Virus record (IMG/VR): IMGVR_UViG_3300031841_003468
Span: 89,712 to 153,711 of that record
Direction: 5' to 3' (one strand)
DNA: 64,000 nt
Source: a virus
Positions within the stretch are counted from its first letter, which is position 1. The number at the start of each line of letters is the position of its first letter. The notes under the pieces are model-generated. The model did not search any database. It was not told the origin of the DNA and saw only the letters and a list, made by a program, of their open reading frames with translations. A program made the position numbers and the translations under genes. Below, piece by piece: positions 25,932-45,100 of the stretch.

Positions 25932-26942
25932 ATGGCCAATAAAAGAATTTTTTATGCTTGCCAAGCCGTAGCTATCACAACCCAAGACGGTTCCGTTGGA
26001 GCTGGGAATGTGATGAAAGGTGTCCAGAGTGTTGGTATTAATACCAATATTTCTCTAGACCAAGTTTTCGAGCTAGGTCAAGCAGCCATTTATGAAAATA
26101 TAGAAGAAGTTGCCGAAGTTGAAGTAACCATTGAAAAGGTTCTTGACGGGCACAAACTTCTATATAACGCTGCTGCTCCATCTGGTGGCACTGATATCGT
26201 TGCTGCTTCTGCGGAAGAATGTGACGTTTATCTAGCTATTTATGCTGATAGTGCCAACGCAATCGCTTCAACTAATAAAGTAAACGTCGTAGCCTGCCCT
26301 AAAATGGTAGTAGGTTCTGTTTCTTATAGTTGGACTGTTGACGGAACAGCAACTGAATCTGTTACCCTAGTCGGTAACGATAAGGTCTGGAATACCCAAG
26401 CTAGTGATCTAATGAGTGCCGATGCAGACACTAAGTATGCAGACGGTCTTGCCACTGGTATTGATGGAACTCACAGCCCTCTACACGCAGCCGCTGGCTC
26501 TGGTGTTGTTCGTAGAAGCAACGTTTATAGTCACGGTGATGGTGGTGCCGATTGGCCTGCCGCTGTTTTGACTAACGGTACTGCTGGTAGTCGTCGTGTT
26601 CAATCTATCAGCATGAGTGCTGACTTTGGACGTGAGAACATTCTAGAACTTGGCTCTTTCGGGCCTTATTGCAAGTACGCTAGTTTCCCATTTGAAGTTT
26701 CAGCCGAATTTGAAGTTGTTTCTTCTGGTGGTGACTTAGTTAACGTTTCTGGTACTGGTAAAAACCTAGGTACTGGTGAGACTATCACCGTTACTGACCA
26801 AGCTGGAACTGTTGTCTCAGGTGACAACTTCAAGCTAACTGGAGTTTCATACTCTGGTGGAGATACTGGTGGCGGTAACGCTAGTGTTACTTTTAGCTAC
26901 TCTACTTTCAATAGCTTCACAGCTACTAACCCATCTGCCTAA
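25932..26942 (+). CDS. Major tail tube protein (two tandem tube-like repeats)
   Basis: Internal duplication GVQSVGINTNISLDQVFELG / RVQSISMSADFGRENILELG, high-expression codon bias, position upstream of chaperones and tape measure. Confidence 0.75.
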   Translation: MANKRIFYACQAVAITTQDGSVGAGNVMKGVQSVGINTNISLDQVFELGQAAIYENIEEVAEVEVTIEKVLDGHKLLYNAAAPSGGTDIVAASAEECDVYLAIYADSANAIASTNKVNVVACPKMVVGSVSYSWTVDGTATESVTLVGNDKVWNTQASDLMSADADTKYADGLATGIDGTHSPLHAAAGSGVVRRSNVYSHGDGGADWPAAVLTNGTAGSRRVQSISMSADFGRENILELGSFGPYCKYASFPFEVSAEFEVVSSGGDLVNVSGTGKNLGTGETITVTDQAGTVVSGDNFKLTGVSYSGGDTGGGNASVTFSYSTFNSFTATNPSA

Positions 26943-27079
26943 TAGCGGATAAGTAGAATAGCAATAAAGACTTTTTATAGCGATAGCTAGATTTACAGAT
27001 AAATATATAGGATAGAATTTGTCTAGCAAGTAATATTAAGTCATGATTAGGGATAATAGGAAGGAACTTTTTTTTAGCT

Positions 27080-28129
27080 ATGGAACAAGAGCAAAAAGAA
27101 GCTATAACTTACAGGATAATTTCTGGCGAATTTAGATTTCGTTACGGTGACATGCGTCTCAAGGTGATTGAGCCAGACAGTTCATTGATGTATGAAGCCA
27201 GCGAAATATATAAAGAAGCATTTGAAGATGCTTATCTACAGGGTCTCTATACCGAGCAAGAAAGACTTGATCTTCTGCTAAAGAACAATCTATGGTCTCC
27301 TCTTGACGATAAACATGCAGAATCTCTCTCTAAAGAAATTGATGATCTTAAGGTAGAATGTTTTAAGAACTTTTGGAACAAAAGAGAGCTTAGAGGATTT
27401 AAAAACTCTCTTAGAAGAAAAGAAAAAGAGTGGCAGGAAGCCCTTATGAAAAAACATCAGTTTTCCGATGTTAGTATTTCTGGCTACGCATCTGCCGCCA
27501 AATGGACTTATATAATTAGTAATTCAACATATCATATGAATGATGAAAAGTGTTTGTTTGAAAACGTAACACTTCCAAAAGTAGTTCAAACATATCAGTC
27601 CAATAAAATAAAAGACTCCGAAATAAGAGAGTGTGCAAGATCTACTCCTTGGAGCGGAATGTGGGGTGCGGCTAACCGAGAAGGCTCTTTGTTCGGAAAA
27701 CCCACAGCTACCCTAACAAGAGAGCAGCTACTTATATGTCAGTATTCTAGAATGTATGATGGAATATATGAAAACCCGGATGCTCCTGATGATAAAATAA
27801 TTGAAGACGATGACGCATTAGACGGATGGATGATATCCGAAAGAAAGAAACGAAAAGAAGAAAAAGCCAAAAGCGAAGCAGAGCAAATGATTGGAAATAG
27901 TAAAATTTCCGGTGCCGGAGAAGTCTTTGTAATGGCAGACTCAATAGAAGAAAGAGAAAAGATTATGTCTCTTAATTCAGCTGAGTCTAAAAATATCATT
28001 GCCGAAAGGAATGCAAGATTAGAACAGGAAGGATCTCTGGTTGATGCCCAACTTCCAGATGTCCAGCGGGATTTGCTGGTTCAGCAAAACGAAGCATTTA
28101 TATCAAATATGGGCGGTAACAAAACTTAA
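27080..28129 (+). CDS. Putative tail assembly chaperone (long paralogue)
   Basis: Between tube and tape measure genes; N-terminal ~115 aa align without gaps to 28505..29377. Confidence 0.55.
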   Translation: MEQEQKEAITYRIISGEFRFRYGDMRLKVIEPDSSLMYEASEIYKEAFEDAYLQGLYTEQERLDLLLKNNLWSPLDDKHAESLSKEIDDLKVECFKNFWNKRELRGFKNSLRRKEKEWQEALMKKHQFSDVSISGYASAAKWTYIISNSTYHMNDEKCLFENVTLPKVVQTYQSNKIKDSEIRECARSTPWSGMWGAANREGSLFGKPTATLTREQLLICQYSRMYDGIYENPDAPDDKIIEDDDALDGWMISERKKRKEEKAKSEAEQMIGNSKISGAGEVFVMADSIEEREKIMSLNSAESKNIIAERNARLEQEGSLVDAQLPDVQRDLLVQQNEAFISNMGGNKT

Positions 28130-28145
28130 TTTTAAGGAAAATTAG

Positions 28146-28502
28146 ATGGACAATTTTAATGATCTATTAAAGCAGTCTCTCGACTACAAGCAGAAGAGAG
28201 ATAGCAGGTATAAGGAGGTCTCTAAAGATCGCCTTTGTAAGATCGCTAAAAAGAAAGTTCAAACAACTATGATTGGCTCTCTTTCTAGCATCGAAAAACA
28301 TTTAGGATTTTTATGGGGTCACGGCGAAGCCGTTGAGGACTTAACCCCAGAACAGGCTGCAGTCAGGGCACTATTTGAAGAAGCACGAGCAGAAATTCTT
28401 GATCGTGGTAATACTCAAATCAGAAATCTAGAAACTGAGCTTGTTAACTACGATATAACTTGGAATAAACAAACTACTAATCTAAGAATGAAGGACAACT
28501 AA
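28146..28502 (+). CDS. Hypothetical helical protein in the tail assembly cluster
   Basis: Operonic ORF with RBS; no motif recognised. Confidence 0.65.
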   Translation: MDNFNDLLKQSLDYKQKRDSRYKEVSKDRLCKIAKKKVQTTMIGSLSSIEKHLGFLWGHGEAVEDLTPEQAAVRALFEEARAEILDRGNTQIRNLETELVNYDITWNKQTTNLRMKDN

Positions 28503-28504
28503 AA

Positions 28505-29377
28505 ATGGAACGTATTATAAAAAGTGTAAGCCTAGAAGGAAATGAAGTATCTGTCAAGGTTATCTCCCCCAATGCTAAAGCAGTTAGAGATGGACAGGCA
28601 GCATACAATAAAGTATTTAGAGAGTCTCTAGAAAACGGTTCTTTATTGCGTCAAAAGCTTGGCGAATACATGGAAGAGCAGGGACTATGGGACGAAGCCA
28701 AAGAACTGAAATACGCTGAAATTATGCAAGCTATTGCTCAAGATGAAGAGACACTACAGTCTGGTGGTATTCCTTTGTCCGAAGCTAAAGAAATTGCATT
28801 TGGACTTAAAGCAAAAAGAGCACAGTTCACCGAACTTATTTCTGAAAGAAATCAGCTAGACGCTATGACCGCAGAAGGAACAGCAGACAATGCTCGTTTT
28901 AACTCTTTGGTTGTTTCTTGTGTGCTAAATCTTTCTGGTGGTCAAATTTGGAATAGTATTGAAGATTATGACTTAGAAGCAAATGAGCCTTGGGCTGTCG
29001 AAGCTGCAAGTGCTTTAGCTAACATGATTTATGGTATTGATGAAAATTATGACCAGACTAGAGTTGAGCATAAATTTTTAGTTGAATATAAATTCACCGA
29101 CGAAAAAGGTAGACGCATTAATGAAGAAGGCCATCTTGTAGACAATGAGGGTCGTCTAATTAATGAAGAAAACCATTATATTAAATATGATGATGAAGGT
29201 AATGAAATTAGAATTACCAAAGACGGTGAAGAAATGGACGAAAATGGAAATGTAGTCACAAAATTTTCTCCATTTTTAGATGATTCTGGAAAACCAGTTA
29301 CTCCTCCTTCTGAAGAAGAAAAGGAAGAGCCAAAAAAACCTGCCAGAAGAACACGAAAATCTACGGCAAAAAGCTAA
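28505..29377 (+). CDS. Putative tail assembly chaperone (paralogue with D-x-x-G repeats)
   Basis: Paralogous N-terminus to 27080; C-terminal DEKGRRI/NEEGHLV/DNEGRLI repeats. Confidence 0.55.
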   Translation: MERIIKSVSLEGNEVSVKVISPNAKAVRDGQAAYNKVFRESLENGSLLRQKLGEYMEEQGLWDEAKELKYAEIMQAIAQDEETLQSGGIPLSEAKEIAFGLKAKRAQFTELISERNQLDAMTAEGTADNARFNSLVVSCVLNLSGGQIWNSIEDYDLEANEPWAVEAASALANMIYGIDENYDQTRVEHKFLVEYKFTDEKGRRINEEGHLVDNEGRLINEENHYIKYDDEGNEIRITKDGEEMDENGNVVTKFSPFLDDSGKPVTPPSEEEKEEPKKPARRTRKSTAKS

Positions 29378-29507: not shown

Positions 29508-32500
29508 ATGTCGTTTAACCTAACCGCACACCTACAGGTTCAGGCTCCTAATCTTAGACCTGTCATTACTCAAATGCGTCAGCAGCTAGCTAATGCAGGT
29601 AATGTACAAATTAATCCAGTTTCTCCTCAAACTGCAGCCAACGTCGCTCAGGTTGGTAAGCAAGCACAAGCCGCAGGAAAGCACCTAAAAAATGCTGCTC
29701 ATGCAGGCAGGGGCTTTGCCGGATCTTTAATGGAAAGTGTCAAGCGTGCTGCTGGTCTTAGTATTGCACTGGGTACAATTATTGCGTTGCAAAGAGCCAT
29801 TACAGACGGTTTTGCTGCAGCATTTAAGTTTGAAAGAGAACTAGCTAGATTACAACAGGTTACTGGCAAAACAAAGGCTCAGTTAGGTGGGTTAACCGAG
29901 GAAGTTCGTAGGCTAGCAAAAACCTTTGGTACATCTTCTGAAGAGTTACTAACGGTATCTAGAACATTAGCACAAGCAGGCTTCTCCGCTGAAACAACTA
30001 AAAGATTGCTAGACACATTAGCAAAGACTGATGTTGCAGCTACATTTGATAGCATTGAAGACTCTGCCGAAGGTATGATCGCATTACTAAATCAGTTTGG
30101 TAGAGATATTGTTGGTGCTGCACAAAAAGCAGATTTTGCAAGAAGTGTATTTGAAAAGATTAATGTTGTATCTAAAAGTTTTGCTGTTGAATCTGCCGAC
30201 TTAATTACAGTTATTAGACGTGCTGGTTCTGTATTCAAAGAAGCTGGTGGTAGTGTTGACGAACTATTAGCAGCCTTTACTTCTGTTCGTTCTGCTACCC
30301 GTGAATCTGCAGAAAGTATTGCAGTTGGTTTTAGAACCATTTTTACTCGTATCCAAAGAGTTGAAACTATTGATCAGCTTAGATCTCTTGGTATTGCCCT
30401 GCAGGATGCTGAAGGTAAGTTTATTGGGCCACTTCAGGCTGTTGAGAAACTTGCTCGTGCATTAGATACTCTTGACCCTAGAGACGCTAGATTTTCAGCT
30501 ATTGTTGAAGAGCTTGGTGGTTTCCGTCAGGTTTCTAAGGTTATTCCATTAATTAAAAACTATGCTGTTACACAAGAAGCATTAAACCTTCAGAAAAAAG
30601 CTGATGCTAGTTTGACTAAAGATGCAGCTTATGCGACTGCAACATATGCACAAAGAATGCAACAGTTAAAAGAGACCTTTCTAGATCTCATAAACAATAT
30701 GGTGGGAAGCAAGGGCTTTAAAGATATAGCAGATGACGTTTTAACGCTAGCTAAATCATTAGCATCAGTCATTGAAAGAATGGGTAAATTCTTGCCAATG
30801 CTTGCAGCATTAGGTACTGTTGGTGGTTTTAAATTATTAGGGGGTATGATTAAGGGCGGTAGAGGTTATGCCACTGGCGGTAAAGTACATGCTTTCAATA
30901 GTGGCGGTTTTGTGCCGGGCACTGGAAACACAGATAGTGTCAATGCTGTTTTGACTCCGGGCGAATATGTTCTTAGAAAAAGTGCTGTTAAAAACTTACA
31001 GGCCAACGGTGTTGACCTTAATTCTATGAATAGATACTCTGGTGGTGGTAGAGTAGGCTATGCTGTATTAGGTAAAAAAAATAAGGCAACATCATCTTCA
31101 TATAGTTTGGGAAATCAGCTTCCAACTGAAAGCGGAGCAAGAAAAAACATAGCCTCAGCCGCAGCTAAGAAAAAGGTTTCTGAGGCACAAGCAAATAAAG
31201 CTTGGCAAAGAGCTGTCCCTAAAACCATGAAAAACTTTAGTATTACCTTTGCTGGCCCCAAGGGTAGTCCTACTATGTCGGAAGATTTTACCGAAGCGGT
31301 AGAAAGTTCTTATCTTAATGCTATTAGTGCAGCGTCAAAGTCAGTTGGTGAACCATTTGGCTTAAAGGGCACAGATATTACAAAAGGCAATAGAGCAAGA
31401 GTACTAAAAGGTCTTAACGATGCTACTATTGGTAACTTGTTTGAACAGACTTTAACAAATCTTAGTGGTAATAGATATGATAAGAACCCTAATCCTCGTG
31501 CAGCTTATGACCTACCAAAAGGTCTTGGAAATGCAGGTAAATTATTCCCAGAGCTAAAAGCATTTACACCTGTTGAAGCTAAAGCTACAATGCAGGCTGC
31601 AGGTAAAAAGAATGACAGAATTAAAAAATGGGCCAACTATCTTGGTGAAAAAGTCTCTGCAAGAAAGATCGAAAGAGAAATTGACAGAGGAGCCAAGAAG
31701 AAATCGCAACAGGGCACACAGGTCGCAGCAGGTCGTAGTAAATTTACTACACATCAGGCTGGCACCTTTAAGATGCCGAAGATTACAACATCCTCAAGGG
31801 GCGGTCTGATCAGCAGGTTCTCTAGAGGTGGTCAAAACACAGATAGTGTACCCGCTAAAGTAATGCCGGGTGAGTTTATCATCAATAAGAAGTCTGCTTC
31901 TGCGATTGGCATGGCCAACCTAGAAAAGATGAACCAGTCTGGAAAACCTTTACACTTTGCTAAGGGTGGTGCGGTTCCGGGTGCTCAGATTAAGAGATAT
32001 TCCGGCGGTGGCGGCGTTGCAGGTAATTTCGGCACGTTAGCTCTTTTGGGGCTTCCTATAGCTATGTCGAGCATGACAAAAGCACTAGAAAAAGCAACTG
32101 AGGAAACCAAGGCATTTGTCAATGAGTTTATGGCATGGATTCCTATAATCGGTCTTGCTGCCTATATAACAAACAATCTTGTTGCCTCATTCACCGCACT
32201 AGATGCTGCTGCTAAAAAACGTGCCGCTGAGGAAGCTGGCGGCGGGATGATCGCCGGAGGTGCCATTGGAGGGGCTATTACGGGTGCTGTAACAGGTGGC
32301 TTTATTGCTGCTGCACACGAAGCTGCTCGTGCTGCCGAAAGATTTACCAAACTTAATAATGCTGCTGATGCGGCCTCTAAAGGTGTTAAGGCATTTACTG
32401 AAGCACTAAGAACTGGTTCAGAAAGAGCACCAAATAGAGAAAGATATATAAATCAGGTTCAAAGAGCCGCAGCAGCCAGAGCTAAAACAACAAGACAAGA

Positions 32501-35500
32501 GTATGTTGATGATAGAAGTTTTGGGGATATGGCATACCAAGTCGGTGGGGCCATTGTTGGTGCTATTGGTGGTGGTATTCAGGGTGCGGCAATGACTTCA
32601 GGTACTGGTGTTGGTGCTATTGGTGGTGCCACTGTTGGTGCTGGACTTGGTGCATATGGTGGATACACCGCTGCGAGTGCTGACATCCAAGAAGACAGAG
32701 CAAGTTATATTGATAGCATTGCTGGAGTAGATGGGCTAAGGTCTGATCTAGATTCAGCCGAAGCAGTTATAGCTAACAATATACGTCTTGCTGCTGCGGC
32801 AGAAGCATTCGGTGCAGCATTGTTTGACACAACAAAAGCACTTCAAAAATATGATGAAGTCCAAGAAAATAGAACAAGACAAGAAAAAGAGCTTGGCGGC
32901 ACAGGGTTCACTAATGAACAAAAACTAAGTCAAGCCCAGTCAGACTTTGATAGCCTACAGCAAGCAAGACAAGGTAATAAAGCTGAAGTTGCTAGAGCAC
33001 AACAAAGACTAGAACAAACACGTCTAGAAATGTATAGGCAAGCTGACTTACTAGATGAAGATGGAAATCTCGCTGCTAATGCTAGTGATAAAGATCTAGA
33101 TGAAGGAGCACAGGCTCAATTAAAAGAGCAGCAACAACTTCTGGATGACCTAAATTCCAACTACGATGCTTTAGATAAAAAACTTGCTGAAGCTAATATG
33201 AGAACACTTGAGTTTACTCAAGGGTTAGTGACAGAAGGTGTTAAGGCTGGTAAAGGCTTTAAAGAAATCTTCGATAGTAGCGACTATGAAGATGCACTAA
33301 AGAGATATGCACAACAGCTAAGAGACAGAGGCTTTGAAGAATCAGAAGTTCAGGCTTCCCTGCAAAGAGTAAGAAAAGGCCACCAAGAACAATACAAAGA
33401 GTCTGTTAAGCTAAGAAATGAATCACTAAAACGCATAGCTATAGAGAAAAAATTTAGAGCCACAGTAGATAGTTCTATTAGAGCACTAACTGGAATAGCT
33501 CAGGTTAATGTTATATTCAAAGAAATGGCCAACGCTGCAAAAGGTCTAGTTGGAGCACTTTCTGGAACTGGGTCGCTAATATCTGGAGGTGGTTTCTCAA
33601 AGGTATTATTAGATCAGTTTGGCAAATCTATTCAGACTGCTAATGTAGGCCAAATGTTACAAAACCTTCTCGGAAGAAGCTTCGGAGAAGGCGGTGCTTA
33701 CTACATGGCTGGTGAGTTTAATAAGATCAATACTGCGATGGCTAGATTGCCTCAGGCACTAGAAAGACTTAAGGTTGCAGCTAAAGGTATTACTGCAGAA
33801 GAATTTAAGGGCATGAAACCTCAAGAGATTGTTGATAAAATCTTGGGTGAAAGCGGTCTTACATCGGGTTCTATTGGTAAAGTATTATTTGATAGAATTA
33901 GAGAAACTATTAGTCAGGCTTATGTTGCTGGTGCCGATAGTCCAGACTTCTCAGCAGTACAAAATATGATTAAAGAGCTTGGTGAAAATGCCAAGAAGTT
34001 TATTAGTGAAGTTGTTAATCTTCAGCAGGGCTACACTCAAGCTCACGGTGCTGTTGTTCAAGCTATTTATAAGGCTGGCGATGCAGTCCGCAACGCAACA
34101 GCTCAGGTTTTCTCTAATATAATTAAGAATAGAGATAGATTAGATGCTGCAAGAGGAACTGATCGTGGTCTTGGCAATAGAGTAAGAGAAAGAAGCCAAG
34201 CCTTTGCAGGAACTTATGGTACTACTAACATTAATTCTATCGTTGCTCGTGGTGCTGCGGCTAGACGTGGTTTAGCAAGCAATTATGCTCAGGGTGTTGG
34301 TGCAGGTGCAACCTTTGACTTTGATACAATTAGAAAGCTAAATACAGAAAACGCTGCATATCAAGCTGAAATAAGAAAAACAAAACAAGCACTTAAAGAT
34401 TACAGCTCAGTATTAGATCAAAATGCAAACGATATTGTAAAATCTGTAGAAAAAGAAAAGGCTGCTAGAGCATCAATTCAATCTGCAATTAAAGACTTTA
34501 CTTTTGCAGACAATGAAGGTAGAAAACAAATCGCTCAGTCTTACACTGCATTAAATCAAGCATTAAGTGCTGGTAGCATTGAGGCTATTCCAGATTCAAT
34601 GCGTGGTGCAGTTGGTTCGTTATTAGATCAGTTCAAAGATGTACAGATCGCTGGCGGCTTAACTGGAGATCAAATTTCCAAAGGCTTCCAAGTTCAAACC
34701 CTAGATAGACTAATTAAGTCTCAGGGTGGAGCAGGTGTAACACACGATCAGATTAAACAGATCTACGAATCTACTACTAAAGAAGATCAGCTAATTAAGG
34801 GTCTTGAAAACCTCGCTAAAGAACAGCAGCGAGTTGACATGCTGAACCTAGAGTTTGAAAGACAGAATATTGATATTCTAAAGCAGACTCTAACTCAGCT
34901 AAATACTCAGTTCTTAGGAAGCTTAAATGCTATATTTAATAACTACTTTGGTGACAACGCTGGTGTAGCTGGCGGTGGCCCACAGTTTAACAATGCTGGT
35001 GGCAAGATCTTCTCCAGTATATTCCAGTCTCGTGGCAGTGACACTGTTCCTGCTATGTTGACTCCGGGCGAGTTTGTTATGAATACAAGGGCTGTAAAGA
35101 ACATCGGCCTTGGTACACTACAAGCCATGAATAATGGTACTCAGTACTTTAATGAAGGTGGTGCTGTTCAGGTTGCTGACGGTAAAGGTTCTGCACTTAG
35201 CATGGCACGTTACATTGGTAACAATCCTAAGTTAATGCGTAGGTTTGGATATAAAGGTAAAGATGACCTGAAGACTCTAAAGGAATCTAATAATGTTCTT
35301 GACATTCTACGTGCTGCAGATGATCCTATAAATGGCCCAATCGGAACATTATACAGATCATTAAACATCATGAAAAAGTTTAGTGACGCTGGACTATTTA
35401 AGACACTAAACGGTCGTGCTGTACAGTTTGACACAACATCTCCTAAATCATTATATAACAACTTCCTTAAGGAATGGGGAACAGTTGGTGGAAACTATAA

Positions 35501-36098
35501 TGCAATCGGCATTATTGGAAGCATATTACCACAGGCTTTATTAGCATTTGATGCTGTCTCTGGTGCTGTACAAGACTTTATGGCTGGTGGGCCGGGTGGC
35601 TATAATATGCGTCATGGCGATGAAAAATACATGAAAAAACTTAAGGCTCAATACAGAAATCGTGGTGGTATGATTAATCGTGCTGACACAGTTCCTGCGA
35701 TGCTGTCTAAGGGCGAATTTGTAATGAGCAAAAGTGCTGTTAACAAGCATGGTGGAAACTTCTTAAATGCCTTAAACAATGGCAAGGTTTCTGGCTTTTA
35801 TGACGGTGGAAACGTTGGTAGTGTTGCAAGAAGTGGCACTGGTGGATATAATAGTGGTGGAGGACTAGATGCATCTGGCTTAGCTAGAGAATTTGATAAT
35901 TTAGGCCAAAAACTACAGGGTGTAGCGGATGCACTTGATGGACTAACTATTAAGCACACTGTGACAATGGATGGTTCAATGACTATTGGTGGATTTGACA
36001 GCAAGACTATTGCCAAGGCAGTAAAGAATGAAGTTGAAGACCTAGTAGTTAAAGAAGTAAAAGAACGAATGGGCAAACGAGGCTTTAGGGCTGGGTAA
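29508..36098 (+). CDS. Tail tape measure protein with embedded repeat-bounded domains
   Basis: TP901-type tape measure core (FERELARLQQVTG...LAQAG...), hydrophobic and glycine-zipper segments, long coiled coil, four DxVPAxLxxGEFV-type cassettes. Confidence 0.92.
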   Translation: MSFNLTAHLQVQAPNLRPVITQMRQQLANAGNVQINPVSPQTAANVAQVGKQAQAAGKHLKNAAHAGRGFAGSLMESVKRAAGLSIALGTIIALQRAITDGFAAAFKFERELARLQQVTGKTKAQLGGLTEEVRRLAKTFGTSSEELLTVSRTLAQAGFSAETTKRLLDTLAKTDVAATFDSIEDSAEGMIALLNQFGRDIVGAAQKADFARSVFEKINVVSKSFAVESADLITVIRRAGSVFKEAGGSVDELLAAFTSVRSATRESAESIAVGFRTIFTRIQRVETIDQLRSLGIALQDAEGKFIGPLQAVEKLARALDTLDPRDARFSAIVEELGGFRQVSKVIPLIKNYAVTQEALNLQKKADASLTKDAAYATATYAQRMQQLKETFLDLINNMVGSKGFKDIADDVLTLAKSLASVIERMGKFLPMLAALGTVGGFKLLGGMIKGGRGYATGGKVHAFNSGGFVPGTGNTDSVNAVLTPGEYVLRKSAVKNLQANGVDLNSMNRYSGGGRVGYAVLGKKNKATSSSYSLGNQLPTESGARKNIASAAAKKKVSEAQANKAWQRAVPKTMKNFSITFAGPKGSPTMSEDFTEAVESSYLNAISAASKSVGEPFGLKGTDITKGNRARVLKGLNDATIGNLFEQTLTNLSGNRYDKNPNPRAAYDLPKGLGNAGKLFPELKAFTPVEAKATMQAAGKKNDRIKKWANYLGEKVSARKIEREIDRGAKKKSQQGTQVAAGRSKFTTHQAGTFKMPKITTSSRGGLISRFSRGGQNTDSVPAKVMPGEFIINKKSASAIGMANLEKMNQSGKPLHFAKGGAVPGAQIKRYSGGGGVAGNFGTLALLGLPIAMSSMTKALEKATEETKAFVNEFMAWIPIIGLAAYITNNLVASFTALDAAAKKRAAEEAGGGMIAGGAIGGAITGAVTGGFIAAAHEAARAAERFTKLNNAADAASKGVKAFTEALRTGSERAPNRERYINQVQRAAAARAKTTRQEYVDDRSFGDMAYQVGGAIVGAIGGGIQGAAMTSGTGVGAIGGATVGAGLGAYGGYTAASADIQEDRASYIDSIAGVDGLRSDLDSAEAVIANNIRLAAAAEAFGAALFDTTKALQKYDEVQENRTRQEKELGGTGFTNEQKLSQAQSDFDSLQQARQGNKAEVARAQQRLEQTRLEMYRQADLLDEDGNLAANASDKDLDEGAQAQLKEQQQLLDDLNSNYDALDKKLAEANMRTLEFTQGLVTEGVKAGKGFKEIFDSSDYEDALKRYAQQLRDRGFEESEVQASLQRVRKGHQEQYKESVKLRNESLKRIAIEKKFRATVDSSIRALTGIAQVNVIFKEMANAAKGLVGALSGTGSLISGGGFSKVLLDQFGKSIQTANVGQMLQNLLGRSFGEGGAYYMAGEFNKINTAMARLPQALERLKVAAKGITAEEFKGMKPQEIVDKILGESGLTSGSIGKVLFDRIRETISQAYVAGADSPDFSAVQNMIKELGENAKKFISEVVNLQQGYTQAHGAVVQAIYKAGDAVRNATAQVFSNIIKNRDRLDAARGTDRGLGNRVRERSQAFAGTYGTTNINSIVARGAAARRGLASNYAQGVGAGATFDFDTIRKLNTENAAYQAEIRKTKQALKDYSSVLDQNANDIVKSVEKEKAARASIQSAIKDFTFADNEGRKQIAQSYTALNQALSAGSIEAIPDSMRGAVGSLLDQFKDVQIAGGLTGDQISKGFQVQTLDRLIKSQGGAGVTHDQIKQIYESTTKEDQLIKGLENLAKEQQRVDMLNLEFERQNIDILKQTLTQLNTQFLGSLNAIFNNYFGDNAGVAGGGPQFNNAGGKIFSSIFQSRGSDTVPAMLTPGEFVMNTRAVKNIGLGTLQAMNNGTQYFNEGGAVQVADGKGSALSMARYIGNNPKLMRRFGYKGKDDLKTLKESNNVLDILRAADDPINGPIGTLYRSLNIMKKFSDAGLFKTLNGRAVQFDTTSPKSLYNNFLKEWGTVGGNYNAIGIIGSILPQALLAFDAVSGAVQDFMAGGPGGYNMRHGDEKYMKKLKAQYRNRGGMINRADTVPAMLSKGEFVMSKSAVNKHGGNFLNALNNGKVSGFYDGGNVGSVARSGTGGYNSGGGLDASGLAREFDNLGQKLQGVADALDGLTIKHTVTMDGSMTIGGFDSKTIAKAVKNEVEDLVVKEVKERMGKRGFRAG

Positions 36099-36129: not shown

Positions 36130-39100
36130 ATGGCAAACTCAAACGAAAATTTAACTTTGACAATCGGTGACTTAATCACTGATTCTAACCTTAATCTTGG
36201 CTTAAAAGCACAAGACGTTGGTATTTCGCATTTTACGAACTTCAACAAAATGCTTTCTGGTAAGCACGAGAATAAGCTTAGTGACTATCTGCATATTGTA
36301 GATAAAGCCCCAAATACTTATGCAGGTAATCCTGTACTTAATAACGACAATCTTCCTATGTCCTCAGTGGCAGTTGATGACCTGCTATTTATTGGTTCTC
36401 CTCACGCCTCCTCTATTGAATCATTTTCACAGACTAAAACAACCAATCTTTTCATCCCGTCTGTAGCTGCAGAAGTAACATATAATACTGATGGCGGCTC
36501 TGGTGCTGGCGGTGAAACCGTTACTGAAACTACTTACTGCTTTAACGGTGGGTTTTTAATTAATGATGTGCCAAACCCAACCCAGACTCAAAACACTTCA
36601 AATTCTAGAATTGGTGAAACTACCCTGTATTCACTGACTGGCATTAATGAATCTTATTACACTAGTCAGGCTACCAATGCTATTAGCCAAGAAGAGTTTG
36701 AAGAAAGTTTAGATCTCAATCATTCTTTTATTAAGGTTGGACTAAATGCTTCTACTACTGGTTTAGAATATAATTTATCTTTTGGTGGTTTTGTAGACTT
36801 TGCAGACTGGTGGACATATGTACCTAACTTTGATAATACAAAATGGTACATGATAAGAGTTCCAGAACTAGATCAAAATGGTTTTGCCTTAAATAAAACT
36901 AGGTATACAATAGGTCTAGGTATTAGTTTACATAATACTATTGAGGCTACAGTTGCTCACCCAACTACCGGACAACAGGTTCCAGTTTATTTTTGGAAGC
37001 CCGGCACAACTCTTGGTGCTCTCGCAACAGATCACTTTAGTCCAAATACTCATATTGCACTTGGTGTTCCGGGAGTCTTTGTAGATCCAACATCAACTAC
37101 TGCACAAGAGTTCAGCTCTACTTTACCTGTAGGAGCACAAACTTATACACAGGGCCATTCAAACGCATTTATGTCAACAGACTTTGATGCCACCATTGAA
37201 TTCTATAAATACAACCCTGTTTATGGTCACGGGAAAGTACATATTTTTAAGCGTAAAAATGGCGTAACATCCCCAAGAGCAGTTGCAACACAAGGCAATA
37301 AACTATTCAGCTCAAATCATAATCTATCTGATGGAGATATTATTAGAGTAGAGCAGGCTCTTTCTGCAGACGCAGACTCATTACAGCCCAGAGCATTCCT
37401 TAAGGATGAATATGAAGTAAAGGTAGATAATTCAGAAAGCTTTTGGCTTTACGACAAAGATACTTCTGAAATCGTAGACTTAAACATTAGAGAAGGTGAC
37501 ACTGTTATCTGGACTTGCACACAGGGTGCAAATGGTAGCTGGGAAGGTGCATACAAACATATTTATGAAATAAGCTCTCCTATGGGTAAAAACGGACATG
37601 GTTTTACTTGGGAAGATGCTAGCAGAACAGACAATAGCGGTTCCACTAATGACAAGCTCGTGTATGCCATTGAGCCTAACTCAACAAATCTACCTCCAAA
37701 AGATAAGACTATAAGTAAGTCCAATTCCTATTCTGATGACTTTGTTGGATATAGTAGTCAAAATGACCTTGAGTGGCTAAAGCACAGAAACTATCCTAAT
37801 GTTGGATGTACTAGTCTAGCATTCGCATCTTTTGTCAATGGGCCAACCAGCTTCCTTCCATACAAGGCTGACGTAGCCGCAGGTAACAGGTTTGGCTTTG
37901 CTATTGATGCAATCAGAATACCAAGAGAAGAGTTTGTTGGACTAGATAGTTTAATCACTACCAATGACTATGAAGGCGTACACAAGTATAGCACTAGCTA
38001 TCCCGGAGATAGAACAGGACAAAAAGGTCAGTTTTATGCCTTGACTGTTACAGAACCGGGAATGCATAAGCACTATGCTTATAATGAAAATCTAGCTGAT
38101 CTATCTATGGGCTCTAAGTCTGAAGATGGAAAACTAAAGTTAGTACCAGATGTTCAACCAAACGGTAAGCTTTATACCTTTATGGTTAGAGTAAAGGAAG
38201 ATGGCTCTGTAGAAATTAGCTACGGTGGAAGAAAAGAGGTTCCAACTCCCTATGCTCCTAGCTCATACAAAAATACCGCCGAAGGAAGTGATAGCTTTAT
38301 TCATGGTGTGGTTAATAATCTCTGGACTGGTCAACCTTCAGAGCTAGAAATAATCAAAACAAATCACAATGGAAGATTTAATCTTGGCCCTATTAACGGA
38401 GTATCTTCTTTAAATACATTAGTTCATGATCCTTACCATGATTCTTCTGGTACAGAAGTACAAATGAGTCTTGACTCACAAGAGTTTCCGTTTACTGGTG
38501 ACATTGACTTAACTGTCGAAGAAAATGAAGGAGATGCCTTCCCCGCCAAGACAGACCATAGTAGTGTTCTTTTAGATATTGATAGTTGGTACAGTGCCTC
38601 TGATCCTAATAGCTCAAATCAACTAGATCAAGAATTCCAAAACCAGCCAAATAACTGGTTTGAAAAATACTATGACATTAAATCCAACCTTATGTATCTA
38701 GACAACAGAATTACTAGAAGACATGTGGGATGTATCTCTATAGATGACTTAGTAAAACAGCAGGAAAGAATTGACAATAATGATAAGTCATATCTTGTTC
38801 CTAATATATGGAAAAAGTTTAGCGACGCTATTGATGACTACACTCCAGAATATTATAGTGGAAACCCAAACCTAGTTCAAGACTTTGATAGTAATCAGTT
38901 TGGTGGAGTTACATATAATGGTAAGTTCTGGAAAGACTTCAAAAGAGTTGTTAAAACTTGTGATATGTACTGGTTTGAGGCTTCACAAACACAGCTTCTA
39001 GATATTAACAACTATCATGCCACATCAGACTATATAACAAATAAAAGACCTTTAGATAGCCAGTTCTTATTTACAGAAAACGCTTTTACTTCTGTAAAGA

Positions 39101-42100
39101 CAAGGTTCTTGCTGGACGGGCAGATTCCAAAAATACTCATTCTAACGAATAATAATGTAACTAAGAACTCTCACTATGAAGATCTTGGCTTTAGGAATAC
39201 TGTCGGTGACTTTGTCGGCCCTGAAAGAATGAAGAGATGGTCAGACGAAGAAATGGGTCAGTCATTATGCTCACTGTACTCGGCCTACATAGAGTGGCCT
39301 ATTGATTCTGTAGGACAGGCTAATGTTGTGCCTACGCTAGAGCTAAATAGCATTGTTTATAAAGAAGACAAACAAAGTGCTACCAACGGCTCGATAAACT
39401 ATGACTATAGGTTTAATGCAGAATGTAGATTTTACACTCCTGCTAAATATCATCATCCGGCACCAAAAGATGTGTCTCATACAACAGGTTACAACGGTAA
39501 TGCACAAAATAACTTAGATAAGTATGTCACATACCTATTTGGTTCCTCATTTGAGTTTGGTAAGTCCGGCAAAGGTGGAGACATCTTTGTTTCAGAACAT
39601 AACTTTTCTATTGATGGCGACAATACAAAGCTTGATGAATTTGAATTATTTGTTGGTAACTCAGGACATCCCGGAGACACTGAAGCTCATGACTTCTTAG
39701 GGTTCACTAACTCAGGTCTATTGGGATGGGGAATGGTTCATAGACTAAGAGCTTCCTCTAGAGCAGGCTGGGAATTCTATCGTGACCACGAAAACAGTCT
39801 CTTATATTTAACTGCCGCAGCCGTTAAGAATTTTGTATACACAAACTTGGATGAGCACAATAATCAGCAAGCGGGATCAATTATTGGTAACTTTGTTTCT
39901 GATTTGGGTTCAAGCGTAGGTAACGCAGAAAGCAACTGGCTAATAAGCAACAACAATTTCTCAAGAAGAGGTTTTGGCTCATACTTGTCTTACGATCCAG
40001 ATTGTGATGTTCTTCTTGTTGGTGCAGAGGCAGATCCATTTAATGAGCAAAACGTATTAATTGATACAGATCCTAATGAGTTCTTAAAGACAAATAACTG
40101 TGCTCCTACTATCTTCTTGTATGAAAGAGGTAAAAATAGCAAGTCTTCAGAGGTTGTTGATGCATTTAACTTAACACAAAAACTTACTATGACAATGAAA
40201 ACACCAGTGTCCAGTAAGAGAAGACCTTTTGGCAACAGATCATTGGATGGCAATGTTGGTGCTGACTATACAACAGCATACACTAATCCTAAATCCTCTA
40301 GCGACACTATTTTCCAAGATAGATATCCAGAAATGCCTTACTCCATCGACATGAAAGATGGGATTATCACTGCTAGTTTTGGAACAGCATCAGCACTATG
40401 GAATAAGAATGGTAATCAAGAAACTAAGTTTTCTTCAATAACAAACCAACAGCTTATTAAAAGTGCCGAGTACACAGAAATTGTAGACTTTACTACAATA
40501 GATGCTACTACCAATAATAAAACTGTAGAATGGAAGCACTCTGATCAATTTACTACATCAGACTTCATTAATGGCCTACACCAAAACGCCAGCTACTCAG
40601 GTGTGAGCCTTAGCGATGCCAAGTCTGTTGCTTTGGTTAAACACTTTTCTATACCTTCTAGCAATGTTGAGGATGGATATGTAAATCTAGAATCACTAAG
40701 ATTAGCACTAACAAGTAATGACTTTGTTAATGGAAGCTCTATAGACTTTAATATTACATTTTTGTATCAACATGCAAGTTACAATCCTCAAGGAACTTCG
40801 CTACCTTTGGACGACACTTACTATCTTGGTACAGCCAGCTTTAACACTTCAAATGGTATATTTTCAAATACTACAAATACCATACAATTAGAAGATTACT
40901 TTGACCTGAAATCTTTAATGGTTTCCTCTGAGTTCTTAGATAGATCCTCTGATGTTTCTGCTGGCAGACGTACATCCGTACCAAACTCACTTGGTACACT
41001 TTTAATGGCCATCTCTGTTGTGACACCTCAGAGTGACAAGCACAATACATACAAGACTTCTGATATAGGTTCTTTACCTATTTCTTTTGAGGTTTCAGAT
41101 GCAAAGATGTTTGTTACTCTTTCAACTAAGCCTTTCGGTGAATACATTGGTGTTGACTGGTATAACTTTGACAGAACAGATAACTACTATGAGCCAGAAT
41201 TTGCAGCGATTAGCTTCACTAACCTATCGGGCTACTATAGTCTTTCTGCATATGCTGATGTCAATCCTTCGTTAAGAGGAACATATAGCAAAGCATACAG
41301 TATCACAACTGACAGTGCTTTGTTTAGCCCTCATAAGCCAGAGTACCTACCTCTTGCAACCTCAGGTTCTGAAACAGCAAATGGTGGATTAACACTTAAG
41401 CATCATGGTGCCCAAAGCTACGACGATAGCAATGATGACACCAAGATGAGTCTATTTACATTCTCACTAGAGCAACAAGCTAATGATATGAGTTTGGTTG
41501 TCGGCCCTCCAACTAGTGATCAAGGAATGACCTTGCTCTATGCTAATATATATGGCGTAGATCAAGGAGATATGGTTCTTCATAGACCTATCATGAAGGG
41601 TACAGACTTCAACGCAAATGCTCCGCTAATCATTAAAGCTCCTGACTTTAATAATGACATGAGTCTAGTGACTAAAGCTCCTGAAGCAGCGAATGCAAAT
41701 GCTCCACTTGTAACTAGTGGCCCTATATCAGAAAACGGAGAAATGATCCTAACTGGCTCTATTGGTCACTTCTCATACGATGGATTCTTAGGTTTGATTC
41801 TATCTGGAATGGAAGACTTCAATAGTAATATGACTTTGCATGTTGGTGTAGAGTCTGATAATCAGGGTATGAGCCTAGTTCAGTCTTCACCTGAGCCTAA
41901 CAATAATAACATGTCTCTAATCACTCAGGCATCGTTCACAGCGGCCATGCCTTTATTGCTTGAAAGAATTGGCTCTTTTGCATCAACAACTAAGTTGGCC
42001 ATCTTTGACACCAATGAAGCTGAAGCCTTAACTCTTGCTATGAATGCTCTAAACCAAACTGAGTTTGAAACTTCAGATCCATTCACTTTGCATGTAGAGT

Positions 42101-45100
42101 ACAATCCTGCCCTAGCAAATAGTATTGATGATTCGGCTAAAGCTTCTAGAATTATAGGCTTACCTCAAGGTATATTTGACATATCTGATGACGCTGAAGC
42201 ACCTAGACCTTCTGGTAAAAATTCGATAGGTCATAAAAATGCCTTTATTTCCAGTAGAAGTTTTGGTAAAGCTGCTCATAATGCAAGACCTATGGGTGCC
42301 AAAACATTTAATTTTGGTGGCTTTGGAGATGGAATAAATAGCAATCTTCATGGTCAAATCATAAATGGACTAGAGTCCCAACAGGGGCCAAAACATAGTT
42401 CTACCCCTATTGGCCATAATTACGCAATGGGTTTTGCTAGTGAGGGCTTTAGAAGAAGGACTGACATTAGACCAGCCTTTAAGCAAACTTTAGATTCCGC
42501 TGACTTTATTTTTGATCTTGGAAATAAGTTGTTTGTTGGTGGTGGTAGTATATCTAAAATAACAAGAAACATGAATACAAATAGCAACTCTACCACATCA
42601 CTTCATTACGCTAATGGTGCAGACTGGGATCAAAGAACTCCAATCAAAATTGAAGTATTTGATAAAACTGCAAATAAGCAGGTAGAAAAATTATTTGATC
42701 TTGACTTTACTACTGCAATAAATGACATTATTAATGATAATAGCGGATTTGTTTTAGGTGAATCTGGGTTCCGTCACATATTGCGTGAGTCGCTTCATTC
42801 TATGGGTGCATATCAGGAAGCTGGTTCATTCTTCAGTATTACTCCTATGAGTACCGGTATTTTTGACTCAAAGCAGTTGGTAGTTGAAATTAAAGATATC
42901 GCATTGGCAGAAAGAATTGACCATGTAACCAAATTAAATCCATTCAATTCAGAAGTAGAATCTGGTTTGTTCAAGGATTACTATGTCTATAATGATGGTT
43001 CCTTTAGATATCAAGCAGACTGGGAAATCAAAGATACTTATGGTGTTGACAGCAATTACTTTACTGCAGATGGCGACCATACAGCACAAGAGTCTGCAGC
43101 ATGGAAAGATTATCTAGAAGACAACCTCCATTCAGCCTCTCAATTATGTGCAATAAGCGTTGACTTTGTAATGACTAGAATGTCAGAAGACGAACAGGCG
43201 AGATCCTGTAATGCAATATTTGTATTTGACATTGGCTCTGTTCTGCTATATAATGAAAAGCATGAAAAATACAACTGGTCTGGAAGTAAAAAACAGATTT
43301 CCTCAAACGATCTAATGTACTTCTTGTCTCCTAATACTTCTGTGCAAATGAGCCACATTGACCGGGAAACTAAAGGCTGGGGATTGTCTAGTCTAGCTTG
43401 GCATAGAAATGATCTTGGTACAGATTTTGACGGTACAGATTTTGATGGCGGTATAGAGTTTACCCTAATTTCAGATTATCATCTAAATAAAAATAATGAT
43501 TTCTTCTTGCCTTCAGATCAACAGATACAGATTATTTATAGTAATGTTTGGTTCCCCGCTAAGTATGGTGAATATAAGCATCCTAGTCAGTGGCAGTTTA
43601 GCAACAGTACGGTTTTGACTAACCCTGATGGTTCTACGCTATCTGTTTTAAGCACACCTAAAAAGAGATATAATGGAACTTGGAAATATTCTCCAATGTC
43701 TGCACCTCTTAATAACAAGCATAATGCTCAAACTGCAGGTTATGACTTAGACGATTTCTTTAGCACTACACATGACTGGCCAAAGCATGTTGATTCCTAT
43801 GCTTTGCGTCGTCCTGTAAACCATAGTTTAGACTGTGTTGACAAGAATAGAACTGGCCCTAGTGGTGACTCTAGAAAAATTGACATACCAACACCTTTCG
43901 TTATAGAGCCTTGGAATGAATACGAATGGGATGTGTTCTCCTCTGAATATAGTGGATGGGGAAGCACTACTAGCCCAAGCTCTGCAAGCGACAGAAACAT
44001 TATTCAGCCTAGCAATGAGGCAGGTTTCTTTGGTGCTTTATCCAAGAGCAATAATGAATATAAAAGCCCATACCATAACCATGTGCAGAAAATATTAATT
44101 GAAGGCGATTTAATGTTTGTGGCTGTTCCTACTGCTCAGGCAACCATAGAATATTATAGTCACTGGGATGATATTCCTACGTGGAAGCCTGAAAGATACT
44201 TGTACCCTATGTGTCATGGAAAAGTTATGGTGTATAAGTTCGATAGAACAGACACCAGATTTGACAAAAAGGGCTTCTGGAAGCTAGTAGAAACTGTTTA
44301 TGCAAAGGGTAAAACTAGGTCAGAAATGCTGGCTTTAAGTGAGGCAGACTTTAAGGATAATTATCCGTTTGCTGGCAGTGATAACAACTACAATATTGGT
44401 GCCAATGCTGCCCTTTACCATGATTTCTTTGGTTTTGATATTGATTATAAAAATGGAAAGTTGATTGTTGGAGCTCCCGGAGAGGCTGCTGGTAGTGATA
44501 GAGTTAAGTACTTCATAGGCAGCCAAGGTGGGGCAGGGTTTGACACAAATGCAGTTATACCAAATGCTGGTGCTGTCTATGAGTTTGATATTAATCAAAC
44601 AACTGGTGCAGCAACTCTATTAAGAGAAACTAAGGGGTCAGATTTCTTTAGCGATTTCCCAGCTCTTGGTTCGCTTGATTCAAGTTTGACTGAAGAAACT
44701 AGAAAATGGTGGGGTCTTGAATTTGGTAGAGAGGTTAAACTAACTAGTGATAGCTCTTACTGTATGTCTGGTTACTGGGAAGAAAATAGCAAATACATCA
44801 ACGCTGCTACTTCAACAGGTGGAATAGACGTAACCCTTAACTCATTGCATGATATTGGTAGAAATATTACTGAAACTATCAACAATGATAATATCAACGA
44901 AGCTAAAAATTACTATGATGATGTTAACTGGGGGCTAAAGAATGATAGTACATTCTACAATGGTTATGGAACAAATTCTATTAACCTAATGAACCTATTT
45001 AGCGGCATTTCTGTAGTAAACTTTGATGGCAAAGATGAAATATTGGCTACTTCTAGTCTCTCACTATTCACTAGAAACTTCCAAGCTGCATACCCTATCG

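What the first reader, a model, noticed from the sequence alone, without database searches (positions are those of the whole stretch)
30867..35870. Tape measure protein built as a repeat-delimited polyprotein carrying cargo domains
Seen: four copies of a ~50-60-aa cassette 'GG...D[ST]V[PN]A.[LV]..GE[FY][VI]....A...G...L..[ML]N...[FY]xxGG' at ~30867-31050, ~31791-32012, ~34986-35162 and ~35652-35810. There are about 12 xxxGG turns, most [FY]xxGG (YATGG, FNSGG, YSGGG, SSRGG, FSRGG, FAKGG, YSGGG, NNAGG, FNEGG, RNRGG, FYDGG, YNSGG). The cassettes come in two pairs, each bracketing a non-coiled-coil insert: cargo 1 (~245 aa, basic, 31051-31790) and cargo 2 (~160 aa, 35163-35650). Established: tape measures are ejected into the cell, are often proteolytically processed, and commonly carry one such cassette near the C-terminus. 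Inference: the cassettes are processing or recombination boundaries, turning the tape measure into a modular effector-injection system with swappable cargo.
Basis: partly seen in the sequence, partly recalled or inferred. Interest (0 to 1): 0.85.

Follow-up and report, generated by a model that had tools for sequence, protein, structure and literature searches.

The report
Giant tape measure punctuated by hook cassettes
The tail tape measure protein of a 154-kb marine phage carries four copies of a small conserved module that phage lambda and most relatives carry once; the copies mark the junctions between a conserved embedded domain, the long ruler segment and a hypervariable insert, but nothing yet shows that the protein is cut there or delivers effectors.

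Summary
ORF 29508-36098 encodes a 2196-aa tape measure protein (TMP) with four copies of a 50-70-aa cassette at the stated coordinates. They score 55-76 bits against a profile built only from relatives; the best of 500 shuffles scored 6.

The cassette is a known but unnamed TMP module. It matches lambda gpH 730-786, the predicted "hook" of Pseudomonas phage JBD30 gp46 (1022-1066), and two sites in mycobacteriophage Douge/Chaser TMP, where the copies bracket an NlpC/P60 hit.

- "Cargo 1" is not swappable cargo. It is a basic domain defining 206 clusters, nearly all giant TMPs, where two cassettes almost always bracket it. Five residues are near-invariant (G, E, D, K, K). No fold or family match was found.
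- "Cargo 2" is an orphan at a truly hypervariable site: 0 to about 1700 aa across relatives, and 46 inserts fall into 36 unrelated BLAST groups.
- Cassettes are the only islands of DNA conservation beyond the N-terminal block. One recent recombination junction (99.6% identity, then unalignable) ends at a cassette.
- Cleavage at cassettes and effector function remain untested.

Verdict: a new variant of a known kind, of moderate interest.

The parts
29508..36098 (+). Tape measure protein gene, 2196 aa
   Evidence: ORF list and translation. PF10145 PhageMin_Tail E 1.3e-25. TIGR01760 tape_meas_TP901 E 8.5e-25. PHROG 28 and 4211, both tail length tape measure.
29901..30518 (+). TP901-type TMP core (aa 132-337) inside the conserved N-terminal block (aa 1-453)
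   Evidence: Pfam match at aa 132-337. The N-terminal block is 45-77% identical among relatives.
30867..31052 (+). Cassette 1 (aa 454-515)
   Evidence: Positional orthologues in different phages are 59.7% identical, more than paralogues within one protein.
31053..31811 (+). 'Cargo 1': conserved basic domain of unknown fold (aa 516-768; conserved core aa 517-737)
   Evidence: A profile search found 206 clusters at E<=1e-3, nearly all giant TMPs with the domain at about aa 550-950. Two cassettes almost always bracket it. AlphaFold2 core pLDDT is 85-97. No fold or family match. pI 10.2.
31431..31583 (+). Near-invariant residues G642, E646, D668 and K692 (E690-x-K692); K707 follows at 31626-31628
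   Evidence: These positions are >=90% conserved in 42 sequences and E, D and K are invariant in 15 full TMPs. The motif pattern is seen in every relative.
31791..32012 (+). Cassette 2 (aa 762-835)
32013..32687 (+). Gly/Ala-rich hydrophobic segments (aa 836-1060), glycine-zipper-like
   Evidence: Hydropathy peaks at aa 835-853, 869-898 and 915-933. Composition is G 15.6%, A 23.1%. One relative hits the Gly-zipper Pfam family.
32688..34985 (+). Central ruler segment (aa 1061-1826)
   Evidence: Acidic (pI 5.8) with no domain hits. Cassette 2 to cassette 3 spacing is mostly about 950-1300 aa across 96 relatives.
34986..35162 (+). Cassette 3 (aa 1827-1885)
   Evidence: It carries the F-x-P/S-x-G-[ST]-D-T-V-P-A-M-L signature shared by relatives' third cassettes.
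35163..35651 (+). 'Cargo 2': lineage-specific insert (aa 1886-2048)
   Evidence: The only matches are the protein itself and a 97%-identical TARA Oceans fragment. The AlphaFold2 model is all-helical but low confidence, mean pLDDT 44.7. The equivalent interval in relatives is 0 to about 1700 aa and unrelated.
35502..35558 (+). Most hydrophobic 19-residue window of the whole protein (aa 1999-2017)
   Evidence: Kyte-Doolittle mean 1.76.
35652..35810 (+). Cassette 4 (aa 2049-2101); by position the counterpart of the single cassette of lambda gpH and JBD30 gp46
   Evidence: It lies 95 aa from the C-terminus, as in relatives (85-135 aa), lambda and JBD30.
35811..36095 (+). Conserved C-terminal tail (aa 2102-2196) with predicted terminal helices
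   Evidence: BLAST similarity to relatives' C-termini. Helices at model residues 296-316 and 339-365. By analogy with solved TMP C-terminal coiled coils in lambda, T5 and JBD30 (PMC10721106, PMC10038345, PMC11445458).

Best explanation
This is the tape measure protein of a 154-kb marine long-tailed phage. It belongs to a large, mostly metagenomic family of giant TMPs built from modules that a conserved 50-70-aa mini-domain joins together.

The mini-domain is bounded by [FY]xxGG and is predicted to form a beta-hairpin plus two short helices. It is the same module that sits once, about 90-140 residues before the C-terminus, in lambda gpH, KS9 and JBD30 gp46, where it was described as a predicted 'hook'.

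The family plan is:
1. TP901-type N-terminal core
2. cassette 1
3. a conserved basic domain
4. cassette 2
5. glycine-zipper segments plus about 1000-1300 aa of ruler
6. cassette 3
7. zero to three units of (variable insert + cassette)
8. a tail of about 100 aa that plugs the tail tip

Shown:
- The architecture, its conservation and the hypervariability of the C-terminal interval.
- Cassettes are the only DNA-conserved islands beyond the N-terminal block.
- One recent recombination junction ends exactly at a cassette.

Inferred:
- At the protein level each cassette is a docking or joint element. It lets a non-ruler segment leave and re-enter the TMP bundle, or anchors the TMP to the tube or hub lumen.
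- At the DNA level, its strong conservation makes it a preferred crossover and duplication point. That would explain why modules between cassettes are exchanged or inserted.

Whether the protein is also cut at cassettes is unknown.
For: TMP identity:
-.

Cassette identity:
- A 29-sequence cassette profile hits Douge gp16 twice (E 2.9e-13) and lambda gpH 730-786 (E 3.8e-5).
- It hits JBD30 gp46 at 1015-1068, KS9 and Vibrio R30Z.
- My models give the same secondary structure for all four cassettes.

Conserved architecture:
- 206 clusters carry the cargo-1 domain.
- Cassette counts in relatives of 1500 aa or more are 2 (30), 3 (34), 4 (25), 5 (8) and 6 (2), and two cassettes almost always bracket the domain.
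- Cassette 2-3 spacing is mostly about 950-1300 aa, and the tail after the last cassette is mostly 85-135 aa.

Variable site:
- The cassette 3-4 interval is 163 aa here, against 766, 800, 2 (tandem cassettes) or absent in the closest relatives, with no similarity between them.
- 46 inserts fall into 36 BLAST groups, 30 of them singletons. Ruler segments hit 9-18 other proteins.

DNA level:
- L008 and L010 are 99.56% identical over 5890 nt, ending at aa 964, the end of cassette 2.
- In at least 8 further pairs the N-terminal homology block ends at cassette 1.
- Beyond that point the only DNA matches are cassettes, including cross-position matches of 82-85% over 50-68 nt.
- C-terminal cassettes are more alike within a protein (51-57%) than between proteins (45-49%). 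This fits local duplication or gene conversion.

Bracketing of a globular domain elsewhere:
- In the Chaser TMP, cassettes at 964-1027 and 1412-1461 flank an NlpC/P60 hit at 1296-1332.
Against: - The protein-level role as hook or joint rests on predicted structure of moderate to low confidence (cassette pLDDT about 50-75) and on a speculation in one paper. In lambda, Douge and JBD30 the cassette lies in unresolved density.
- For pairs only 65-70% identical, a homology block that ends at cassette 1 could simply mark a change in selective constraint rather than a crossover. Only one junction (L008/L010) is unambiguous.
- Cassettes 1 and 2 are old positional orthologues, so shuffling there is not frequent.
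- No insert has a recognisable function, so what the modules contribute is unknown.
Confidence: 0.6

Rival explanations
1. Polyprotein and effector delivery. The TMP is cut at or beside each cassette during tail maturation or ejection. This would free cargo 1 and cargo 2 as separate proteins that enter the cell ahead of the DNA.
For: - TMP processing is established in lambda and T5. Lambda gpH is cut at about residue 690-720, in a glycine-rich region just upstream of its cassette at 730-786, by an unknown protease at an unmapped site (PMC12617516).
- T5 pb2 is cut after R1127, which separates an enzymatic C-terminal piece (PMC10038345).
- JBD30 authors predict cleavage at R1066, the last residue of the cassette core (PMC11445458).
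- Internal loss of a TMP segment has been reported (PMC1796659).
- The cassette 3-4 interval is hypervariable.
- In Chaser and Douge the cassettes flank a cell-wall hydrolase-like domain.
Against: - No cleavage data exist for any multi-cassette TMP.
- T5 pb2 is cleaved but lacks the cassette: it does not appear in either PDB profile search.
- Cargo 1 is a fixed family domain, not exchangeable cargo.
- No insert matches any enzyme, toxin or effector family.
- The cassette shows no match to any protease family.
- Cutting at cassettes 1 and 2 would detach the N-terminal core from the ruler.
Confidence: 0.2
2. The cassettes act after ejection as envelope-binding modules, for example binding the cell wall. 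They would hold ejected TMP segments and any embedded hydrolase in the periplasm or wall.
For: - The arrangement in Chaser and Douge (cassette, NlpC/P60, cassette) recalls bacterial hydrolases that combine wall-binding repeats with NlpC/P60 (my knowledge).
- The G-[DE]-x-[VL]...G...L...N spacing loosely resembles LysM (from memory; a lead only).
Against: - None of 29 cassettes hits LysM or any other Pfam family, even at E<=10.
- The PDB profile search returns only TMPs above noise.
- The cassette is equally conserved in phages of Gram-negative bacteria, mycobacteria and marine hosts, whose envelopes differ.
Confidence: 0.1
3. The cassettes are ordinary internal duplications of the C-terminal TMP motif with no role of their own. 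The inserts are simply extra ruler that sets tail length.
For: - TMP genes are known to grow by duplication.
- Cargo 2 models as helices.
- Many large inserts are about 1000 aa, close to the ruler length.
Against: - Cassette cores are among the most conserved parts of the protein across a family below 50% identity.
- Cassettes 1 and 2 have kept their positions across more than 85 clusters.
- Inserts show no similarity to the ruler of the same protein.
- The cargo-1 model is a compact alpha/beta domain, not a coiled coil.
Confidence: 0.1

Closest known systems
Lambda gpH C-terminal region (residues about 730-786, within the gpHC fragment)
   Same: It has the same cassette (profile E 3.8e-5), bounded by FATGG and YATGG. 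It lies about 70-120 aa before the C-terminus, as cassette 4 does here. It is followed by the helix that plugs the tip (gpH 818-842, PMC10721106).
   Different: Lambda has one copy, no embedded domains and an 853-aa protein. gpH is known to be cleaved nearby (PMC12617516); nothing is known here. Pfam's Tape_meas_lam_C is a different, upstream segment (KS9 1114-1187 against cassette 1233-1298).
Pseudomonas phage JBD30 gp46 'hook' (residues 1022-1066)
   Same: It is the same module with the same predicted fold, a short beta-hairpin plus two helices (PMC11445458).
   Different: It is a single copy. Its proposed role, holding the TMP in the baseplate after the C-terminal domain leaves, cannot by itself explain copies 1400-1700 residues from the tip.
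Mycobacteriophage Douge/Chaser TMP gp16 (PDB 8zdo)
   Same: It has two cassettes (964-1027 and 1412-1461) that bracket a non-ruler segment with an NlpC/P60 hit. This is the same bracket-a-domain layout as cassettes 1-2 here.
   Different: The bracketed domain differs (a hydrolase against an unknown basic domain). There is no third or fourth cassette near the C-terminus. The two Chaser cassettes are near-identical to each other, whereas here they have diverged. Only residues 1658-1699 are resolved in the structure (PMC13033339).
Embedded functional motifs in mycobacteriophage TMPs (Rpf-like, mt3; TM4 gp17)
   Same: It establishes that TMPs carry non-ruler domains which act during infection (PMC1796659).
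   Different: Those motifs resemble host wall hydrolases. The inserts here match nothing known, and flanking cassettes were not described in that work.
T5 pb2
   Same: It is a TMP processed into a ruler part and a C-terminal piece with separate function. Hydrophobic segments form the channel (PMC10038345).
   Different: No cassette is detectable in either PDB profile search.

Membership tests
Phage tail tape measure protein, TP901 / PhageMin_Tail type | Match to the family core model above the curated threshold | tested here: met
   PF10145 scores 90.9 bits against a cutoff of 33.2. TIGR01760 scores 87.5 bits against a cutoff of 28.8.
Phage tail tape measure protein, TP901 / PhageMin_Tail type | Very long, largely helical protein with a C-terminal helix, encoded in the tail module | tested here: met
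   2196 aa. Terminal helices are predicted. It is the largest-but-one ORF in a same-strand structural block. All homologues are TMP-like.
Phage tail tape measure protein, TP901 / PhageMin_Tail type | Preceded by a tail assembly chaperone pair | tested here: inconclusive
   The upstream ORFs 27080-28129, 28146-28502 and 28505-29377 have no PHROG match.
Lambda-gpH / JBD30-type TMP cassette ('hook') | Profile-level sequence match to the gpH and gp46 segments | tested here: met
   Lambda gpH E 3.8e-5 and Douge E 2.9e-13. JBD30 at 1015-1068, i-E 7.6e-5.
Lambda-gpH / JBD30-type TMP cassette ('hook') | Predicted beta-hairpin followed by two short helices | tested here: met
   DSSP of the models gives E25-29, E34-36, H38-46, H51-54 and E328-332, E337-339, H341-347, H349-358, and E23-26, E29-31, H34-40, H42-49. 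pLDDT is only about 50-75.
Lambda-gpH / JBD30-type TMP cassette ('hook') | Single copy about 90-140 residues from the C-terminus | tested here: not met
   There are four copies. Only cassette 4 has that position.
PD-(D/E)xK nuclease fold (cargo 1) | Ordered E ... D ... (D/E)xK residues, conserved across homologues | tested here: met
   E646, D668, E690-x-K692 and K707 are >=90% conserved in 42 sequences and invariant in 15 full proteins.
PD-(D/E)xK nuclease fold (cargo 1) | Structural match to the restriction-endonuclease-like alpha/beta core | tested here: inconclusive
   The model core has pLDDT 85-97. Foldseek against PDB gave no hit at E<=1e-3. VIA-align against 48,161 chains gave a best Z of 4.4 with no nuclease among the top rows. 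BFVD gave nothing.
PD-(D/E)xK nuclease fold (cargo 1) | Profile match to any nuclease family | tested here: inconclusive
   No nuclease family appears among the Pfam hits of 42 members at E<=10. No PDB sequence hit.
Proteolytically processed polyprotein | Defined cleavage sites and separate mature products | not testable with these tools
   This needs virion proteomics. Only literature precedent for single-cassette or cassette-less TMPs exists (PMC12617516, PMC10038345, PMC11445458).
LysM or S24/S26-type module (cassette) | Profile match to PF01476 or PF00717 | tested here: not met
   None of 29 cassettes matches either family at E<=10. No such chain appears in the PDB profile search.

The most novel reading that the evidence does not exclude
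The cassette is an autonomous dock-and-cut element. Each copy in turn engages the opened tail tip as the TMP is extruded C-terminus first, and is cleaved there. The tail would then release a programmed series of payloads into the envelope and cytoplasm before the DNA: first the hypervariable C-terminal inserts, then the channel-forming ruler, and last a basic DNA-end-binding or nuclease-like domain. The same element would explain the unmapped cleavage of lambda gpH.
Probability: 0.12. Interest if true: 0.85.

Novelty: new variant of a known kind. Interest (0 to 1): 0.55.

Why it matters
TMPs are the first phage proteins to enter the cell, and bacterial defences now appear to sense them. Yet most of each TMP is unresolved in every tail structure.

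This work adds four things:
- One small module, conserved from lambda to mycobacteriophages to marine phages, punctuates giant TMPs and brackets their non-ruler domains. That gives a concrete sequence handle on how extra domains are accommodated and exchanged.
- It points to where the still-unmapped cleavage of lambda gpH might be looked for.
- It defines a large family (206 clusters at 50% identity) that shares an unknown basic domain with an invariant E/D/K/K signature.
- It identifies a hypervariable insertion site near the tip-proximal end, a plausible place for host-specific functions or for escape from defence.

Tried and rejected
Family and feature searches with no result:
- Pfam, PHROGs and NCBIfam on each cassette and insert gave nothing beyond the TMP core.
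- ESM Atlas on both cargos gave no usable hit.
- Word-indexed homologue searches for cargo 2 found only the protein itself and a TARA fragment.
- The Pfam survey of 15 large relatives found only PhageMin_Tail and one Gly-zipper.

Structure:
- The cargo-2 model is low confidence (pLDDT 44.7), so I ran no fold search on it.
- The cargo-1 model was searched against PDB by Foldseek, against 48,161 chains by VIA-align, and against BFVD. No match stood out.

Ideas considered and dropped:
- C-terminal inserts as duplicated copies of the ruler. Rejected: no self-similarity.
- The cassette as an S24/S26-like self-cleaving hairpin or a LysM-like module, both resemblances from memory. No profile support.
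- The cassette as Pfam Tape_meas_lam_C. Rejected: that model covers a separate upstream region.

Not possible or uninformative:
- Literature searches for TMP plus nuclease domain, or TMP plus polyprotein, found nothing relevant.
- Pfam on single-cassette mycobacteriophage TMPs that RefSeq annotates as 'endolysin' found no hydrolase domain at E<=0.01. The bracket-a-hydrolase example therefore rests on Chaser/Douge alone.

Full report
**What is there**

The window lies in an IMG/VR virus record of 153,711 bp, estimated 99% complete. ORF 29508-36098 (+) encodes a 2196-aa protein. It matches PhageMin_Tail (PF10145, 1.3e-25), tape_meas_TP901 (TIGR01760, 8.5e-25) and TMP PHROGs. In isolated phages only the N-terminal 450 residues find relatives, at 22-29% identity, and nearly all of those hits are annotated as TMPs. 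A 225-aa TARA Oceans fragment is 97% identical to aa 1849-2073, so the phage is marine.

- They share an invariant skeleton.
- Against a profile made only from relatives' cassettes they score 55-76 bits. The best score in 500 shuffles was 6.2 bits.
- [FY]xxGG occurs 12 times against 1.7 expected, mostly at cassette borders.
- The cassette occurs nowhere else in the genome.

**What the cassette is**

No Pfam family covers it. A 29-sequence profile hits only TMPs among PDB sequences:
- mycobacteriophage Douge gp16, twice (E 2.9e-13)
- lambda gpH 730-786 (E 3.8e-5)

One Douge cassette used as a tblastn query finds 769 phage records (865 places). All listed hits lie under TMP genes, in phages of Mycobacterium, Gordonia, Pseudomonas, Burkholderia, Vibrio and others.

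In KS9, Vibrio R30Z, Cline and JBD30 the single copy lies about 75-140 residues from the C-terminus. In KS9 it lies downstream of, and is distinct from, Pfam Tape_meas_lam_C.

JBD30 gp46 residues 1022-1066, read from GenBank, are the cassette core. [quoted passage not shown] The authors speculate that it holds the TMP in the baseplate, and they predict a cleavage at R1066.

My AlphaFold2 models give the same hairpin-plus-two-helices pattern for all four cassettes, at moderate to low confidence. In the lambda, Douge and JBD30 tail structures only the last 25-42 residues of the TMP are resolved, so the cassette has never been seen (PMC10721106, PMC13033339, PMC11445458).

**Family architecture**

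IMG/VR and ENA/JGI relatives carry the same layout. A profile of the cargo-1 core, searched against 1.84 billion representatives, found 206 clusters at E<=1e-3. Nearly all are proteins of 2000-5500 aa with the domain at about aa 550-950.

Scanning the best 150 gave these results:
- Two cassettes almost always bracket the domain.
- Proteins of 1500 aa or more have 2 (30), 3 (34), 4 (25), 5 (8) or 6 (2) cassettes.
- Cassette 2 to cassette 3 spacing is mostly about 950-1300 aa.
- The tail after the last cassette is mostly 85-135 aa.

So cassette 4 plus the tail is the canonical lambda-like C-terminal module. Cassettes 1-2 plus the domain are a fixed family feature.

**Cargo 1**

- It is strongly basic, pI 10.2.
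- G642, E646, D668, K692 and K707 are near-invariant across 42 sequences and 15 full proteins. The pattern E-x(~20)-[FYW]D-x(~20)-[DE]xK recurs in every relative, and twice in L003.
- The 42-sequence AlphaFold2 model has mean pLDDT 71, core 85-97 and pTM 0.60. It finds no match in PDB by Foldseek, a best Z of 4.4 against 48,161 chains, and nothing in BFVD.
- No nuclease family appears in Pfam or PDB sequence searches.

Conserved charged residues imply a functional site. The nuclease reading remains a lead only.

**Cargo 2 and the variable site**

Cargo 2 has no homologue except the TARA fragment. Its model is all-helical but unreliable, at pLDDT 44.7. It contains the most hydrophobic 19-mer of the protein, aa 1999-2017.

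In the closest relatives the same interval is 766 aa, 800 aa, 2 aa (tandem cassettes in L003) or absent. There is no BLAST similarity between any of them.

Across the family, 46 such inserts fall into 36 BLAST groups, 30 of them singletons. Ruler segments hit 9-18 other members. The inserts are not copies of the ruler. None of 15 large members has a Pfam domain there.

**Cassettes as junctions**

- L008 and L010 are 99.56% identical over 5890 nt, from upstream genes to TMP aa 964. That point is the end of cassette 2. Beyond it they are unalignable at the DNA level.
- In L001/L002 and L003/L004 the homology block ends at aa 506-516, the end of cassette 1. Amino-acid identity falls from 65-95% to 5-27%. 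At least six further pairs behave the same way.
- Beyond that point the only DNA matches are cassettes, including matches between different positions (82-85% over 50-68 nt).

For the more distant pairs a change of constraint could explain the boundary. The L008/L010 junction cannot be explained that way.

Cassettes 1 and 2 are more alike across phages (60% and 54%) than to paralogues in the same protein (42-49%). C-terminal cassettes are more alike within a protein (51-57%) than between proteins (45-49%). This fits local duplication or gene conversion.

**A bracketing example from isolated phages**

In the Chaser TMP, whose first cassette is identical to the Douge cassette I used as query, cassettes at 964-1027 and 1412-1461 flank an NlpC/P60 match at 1296-1332 (26.7 bits, cutoff 23).

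**Processing**

- Lambda gpH is cut in a glycine-rich region at about residue 690-720. Site and protease are unknown, and gpHC stays in the virion (PMC12617516). That is just upstream of the cassette.
- T5 pb2 is cut after R1127, which frees an enzymatic piece (PMC10038345), but pb2 has no detectable cassette.
- Nothing is known for multi-cassette TMPs, and I could not test it.

**Verdict**

The 'swappable cargo' idea fits only the C-terminal interval.

Noticed in passing
L003:9994-10362: In this relative, cassettes 3 and 4 sit in tandem with only 2 residues between them (aa 2344-2393 and 2396-2448). It is an 'empty' version of the variable site.
   Followed up: partly
L011:1106-6205 (Mycobacterium phage Chaser gp16): Two near-identical cassettes flank about 380 aa that contain an NlpC/P60 match at 1296-1332. 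Some other cassette-bearing mycobacteriophage TMPs are annotated 'endolysin' in RefSeq (ShedlockHolmes, Antsirabe, Gengar), but Pfam found no hydrolase in the two I scanned.
   Followed up: partly
L008:1-5890 versus L010:1-5887: Two metagenomic phages share 99.6% DNA identity across four upstream genes and the first 964 codons of the TMP, then diverge completely. One TMP is 2630 aa with 2 cassettes, the other 3717 aa with 4.
   Followed up: yes
window 36130-46530: The 3466-aa ORF directly after the TMP has no PHROG match. Neither do the next two large ORFs (46532-47977 and 47965-51297). The tail-tip genes of this phage are unrecognisable by profile.
   Followed up: no
window 25932-29377: Of the four ORFs upstream of the TMP, three have no PHROG match and the first (25932-26942) only a weak one to a virion structural protein family (E 1.4e-4). 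The tail tube and chaperone genes could not be assigned.
   Followed up: no
window 32013-32687: Directly after cassette 2 comes a Gly/Ala-rich run of hydrophobic, glycine-zipper-like segments (aa 835-1060). This is conserved in position across relatives and is probably the channel-forming part.
   Followed up: partly
window 35052-35726 (aa 1849-2073): A TARA Oceans station-124 fragment (0.1-0.22 um fraction, 225 aa) is 97% identical, so near-identical phages occur in the open ocean.
   Followed up: partly
L003:4534-5889: This relative carries the E...D...(D/E)xK module twice between cassettes 1 and 2 (E651 and E862 copies).
   Followed up: no
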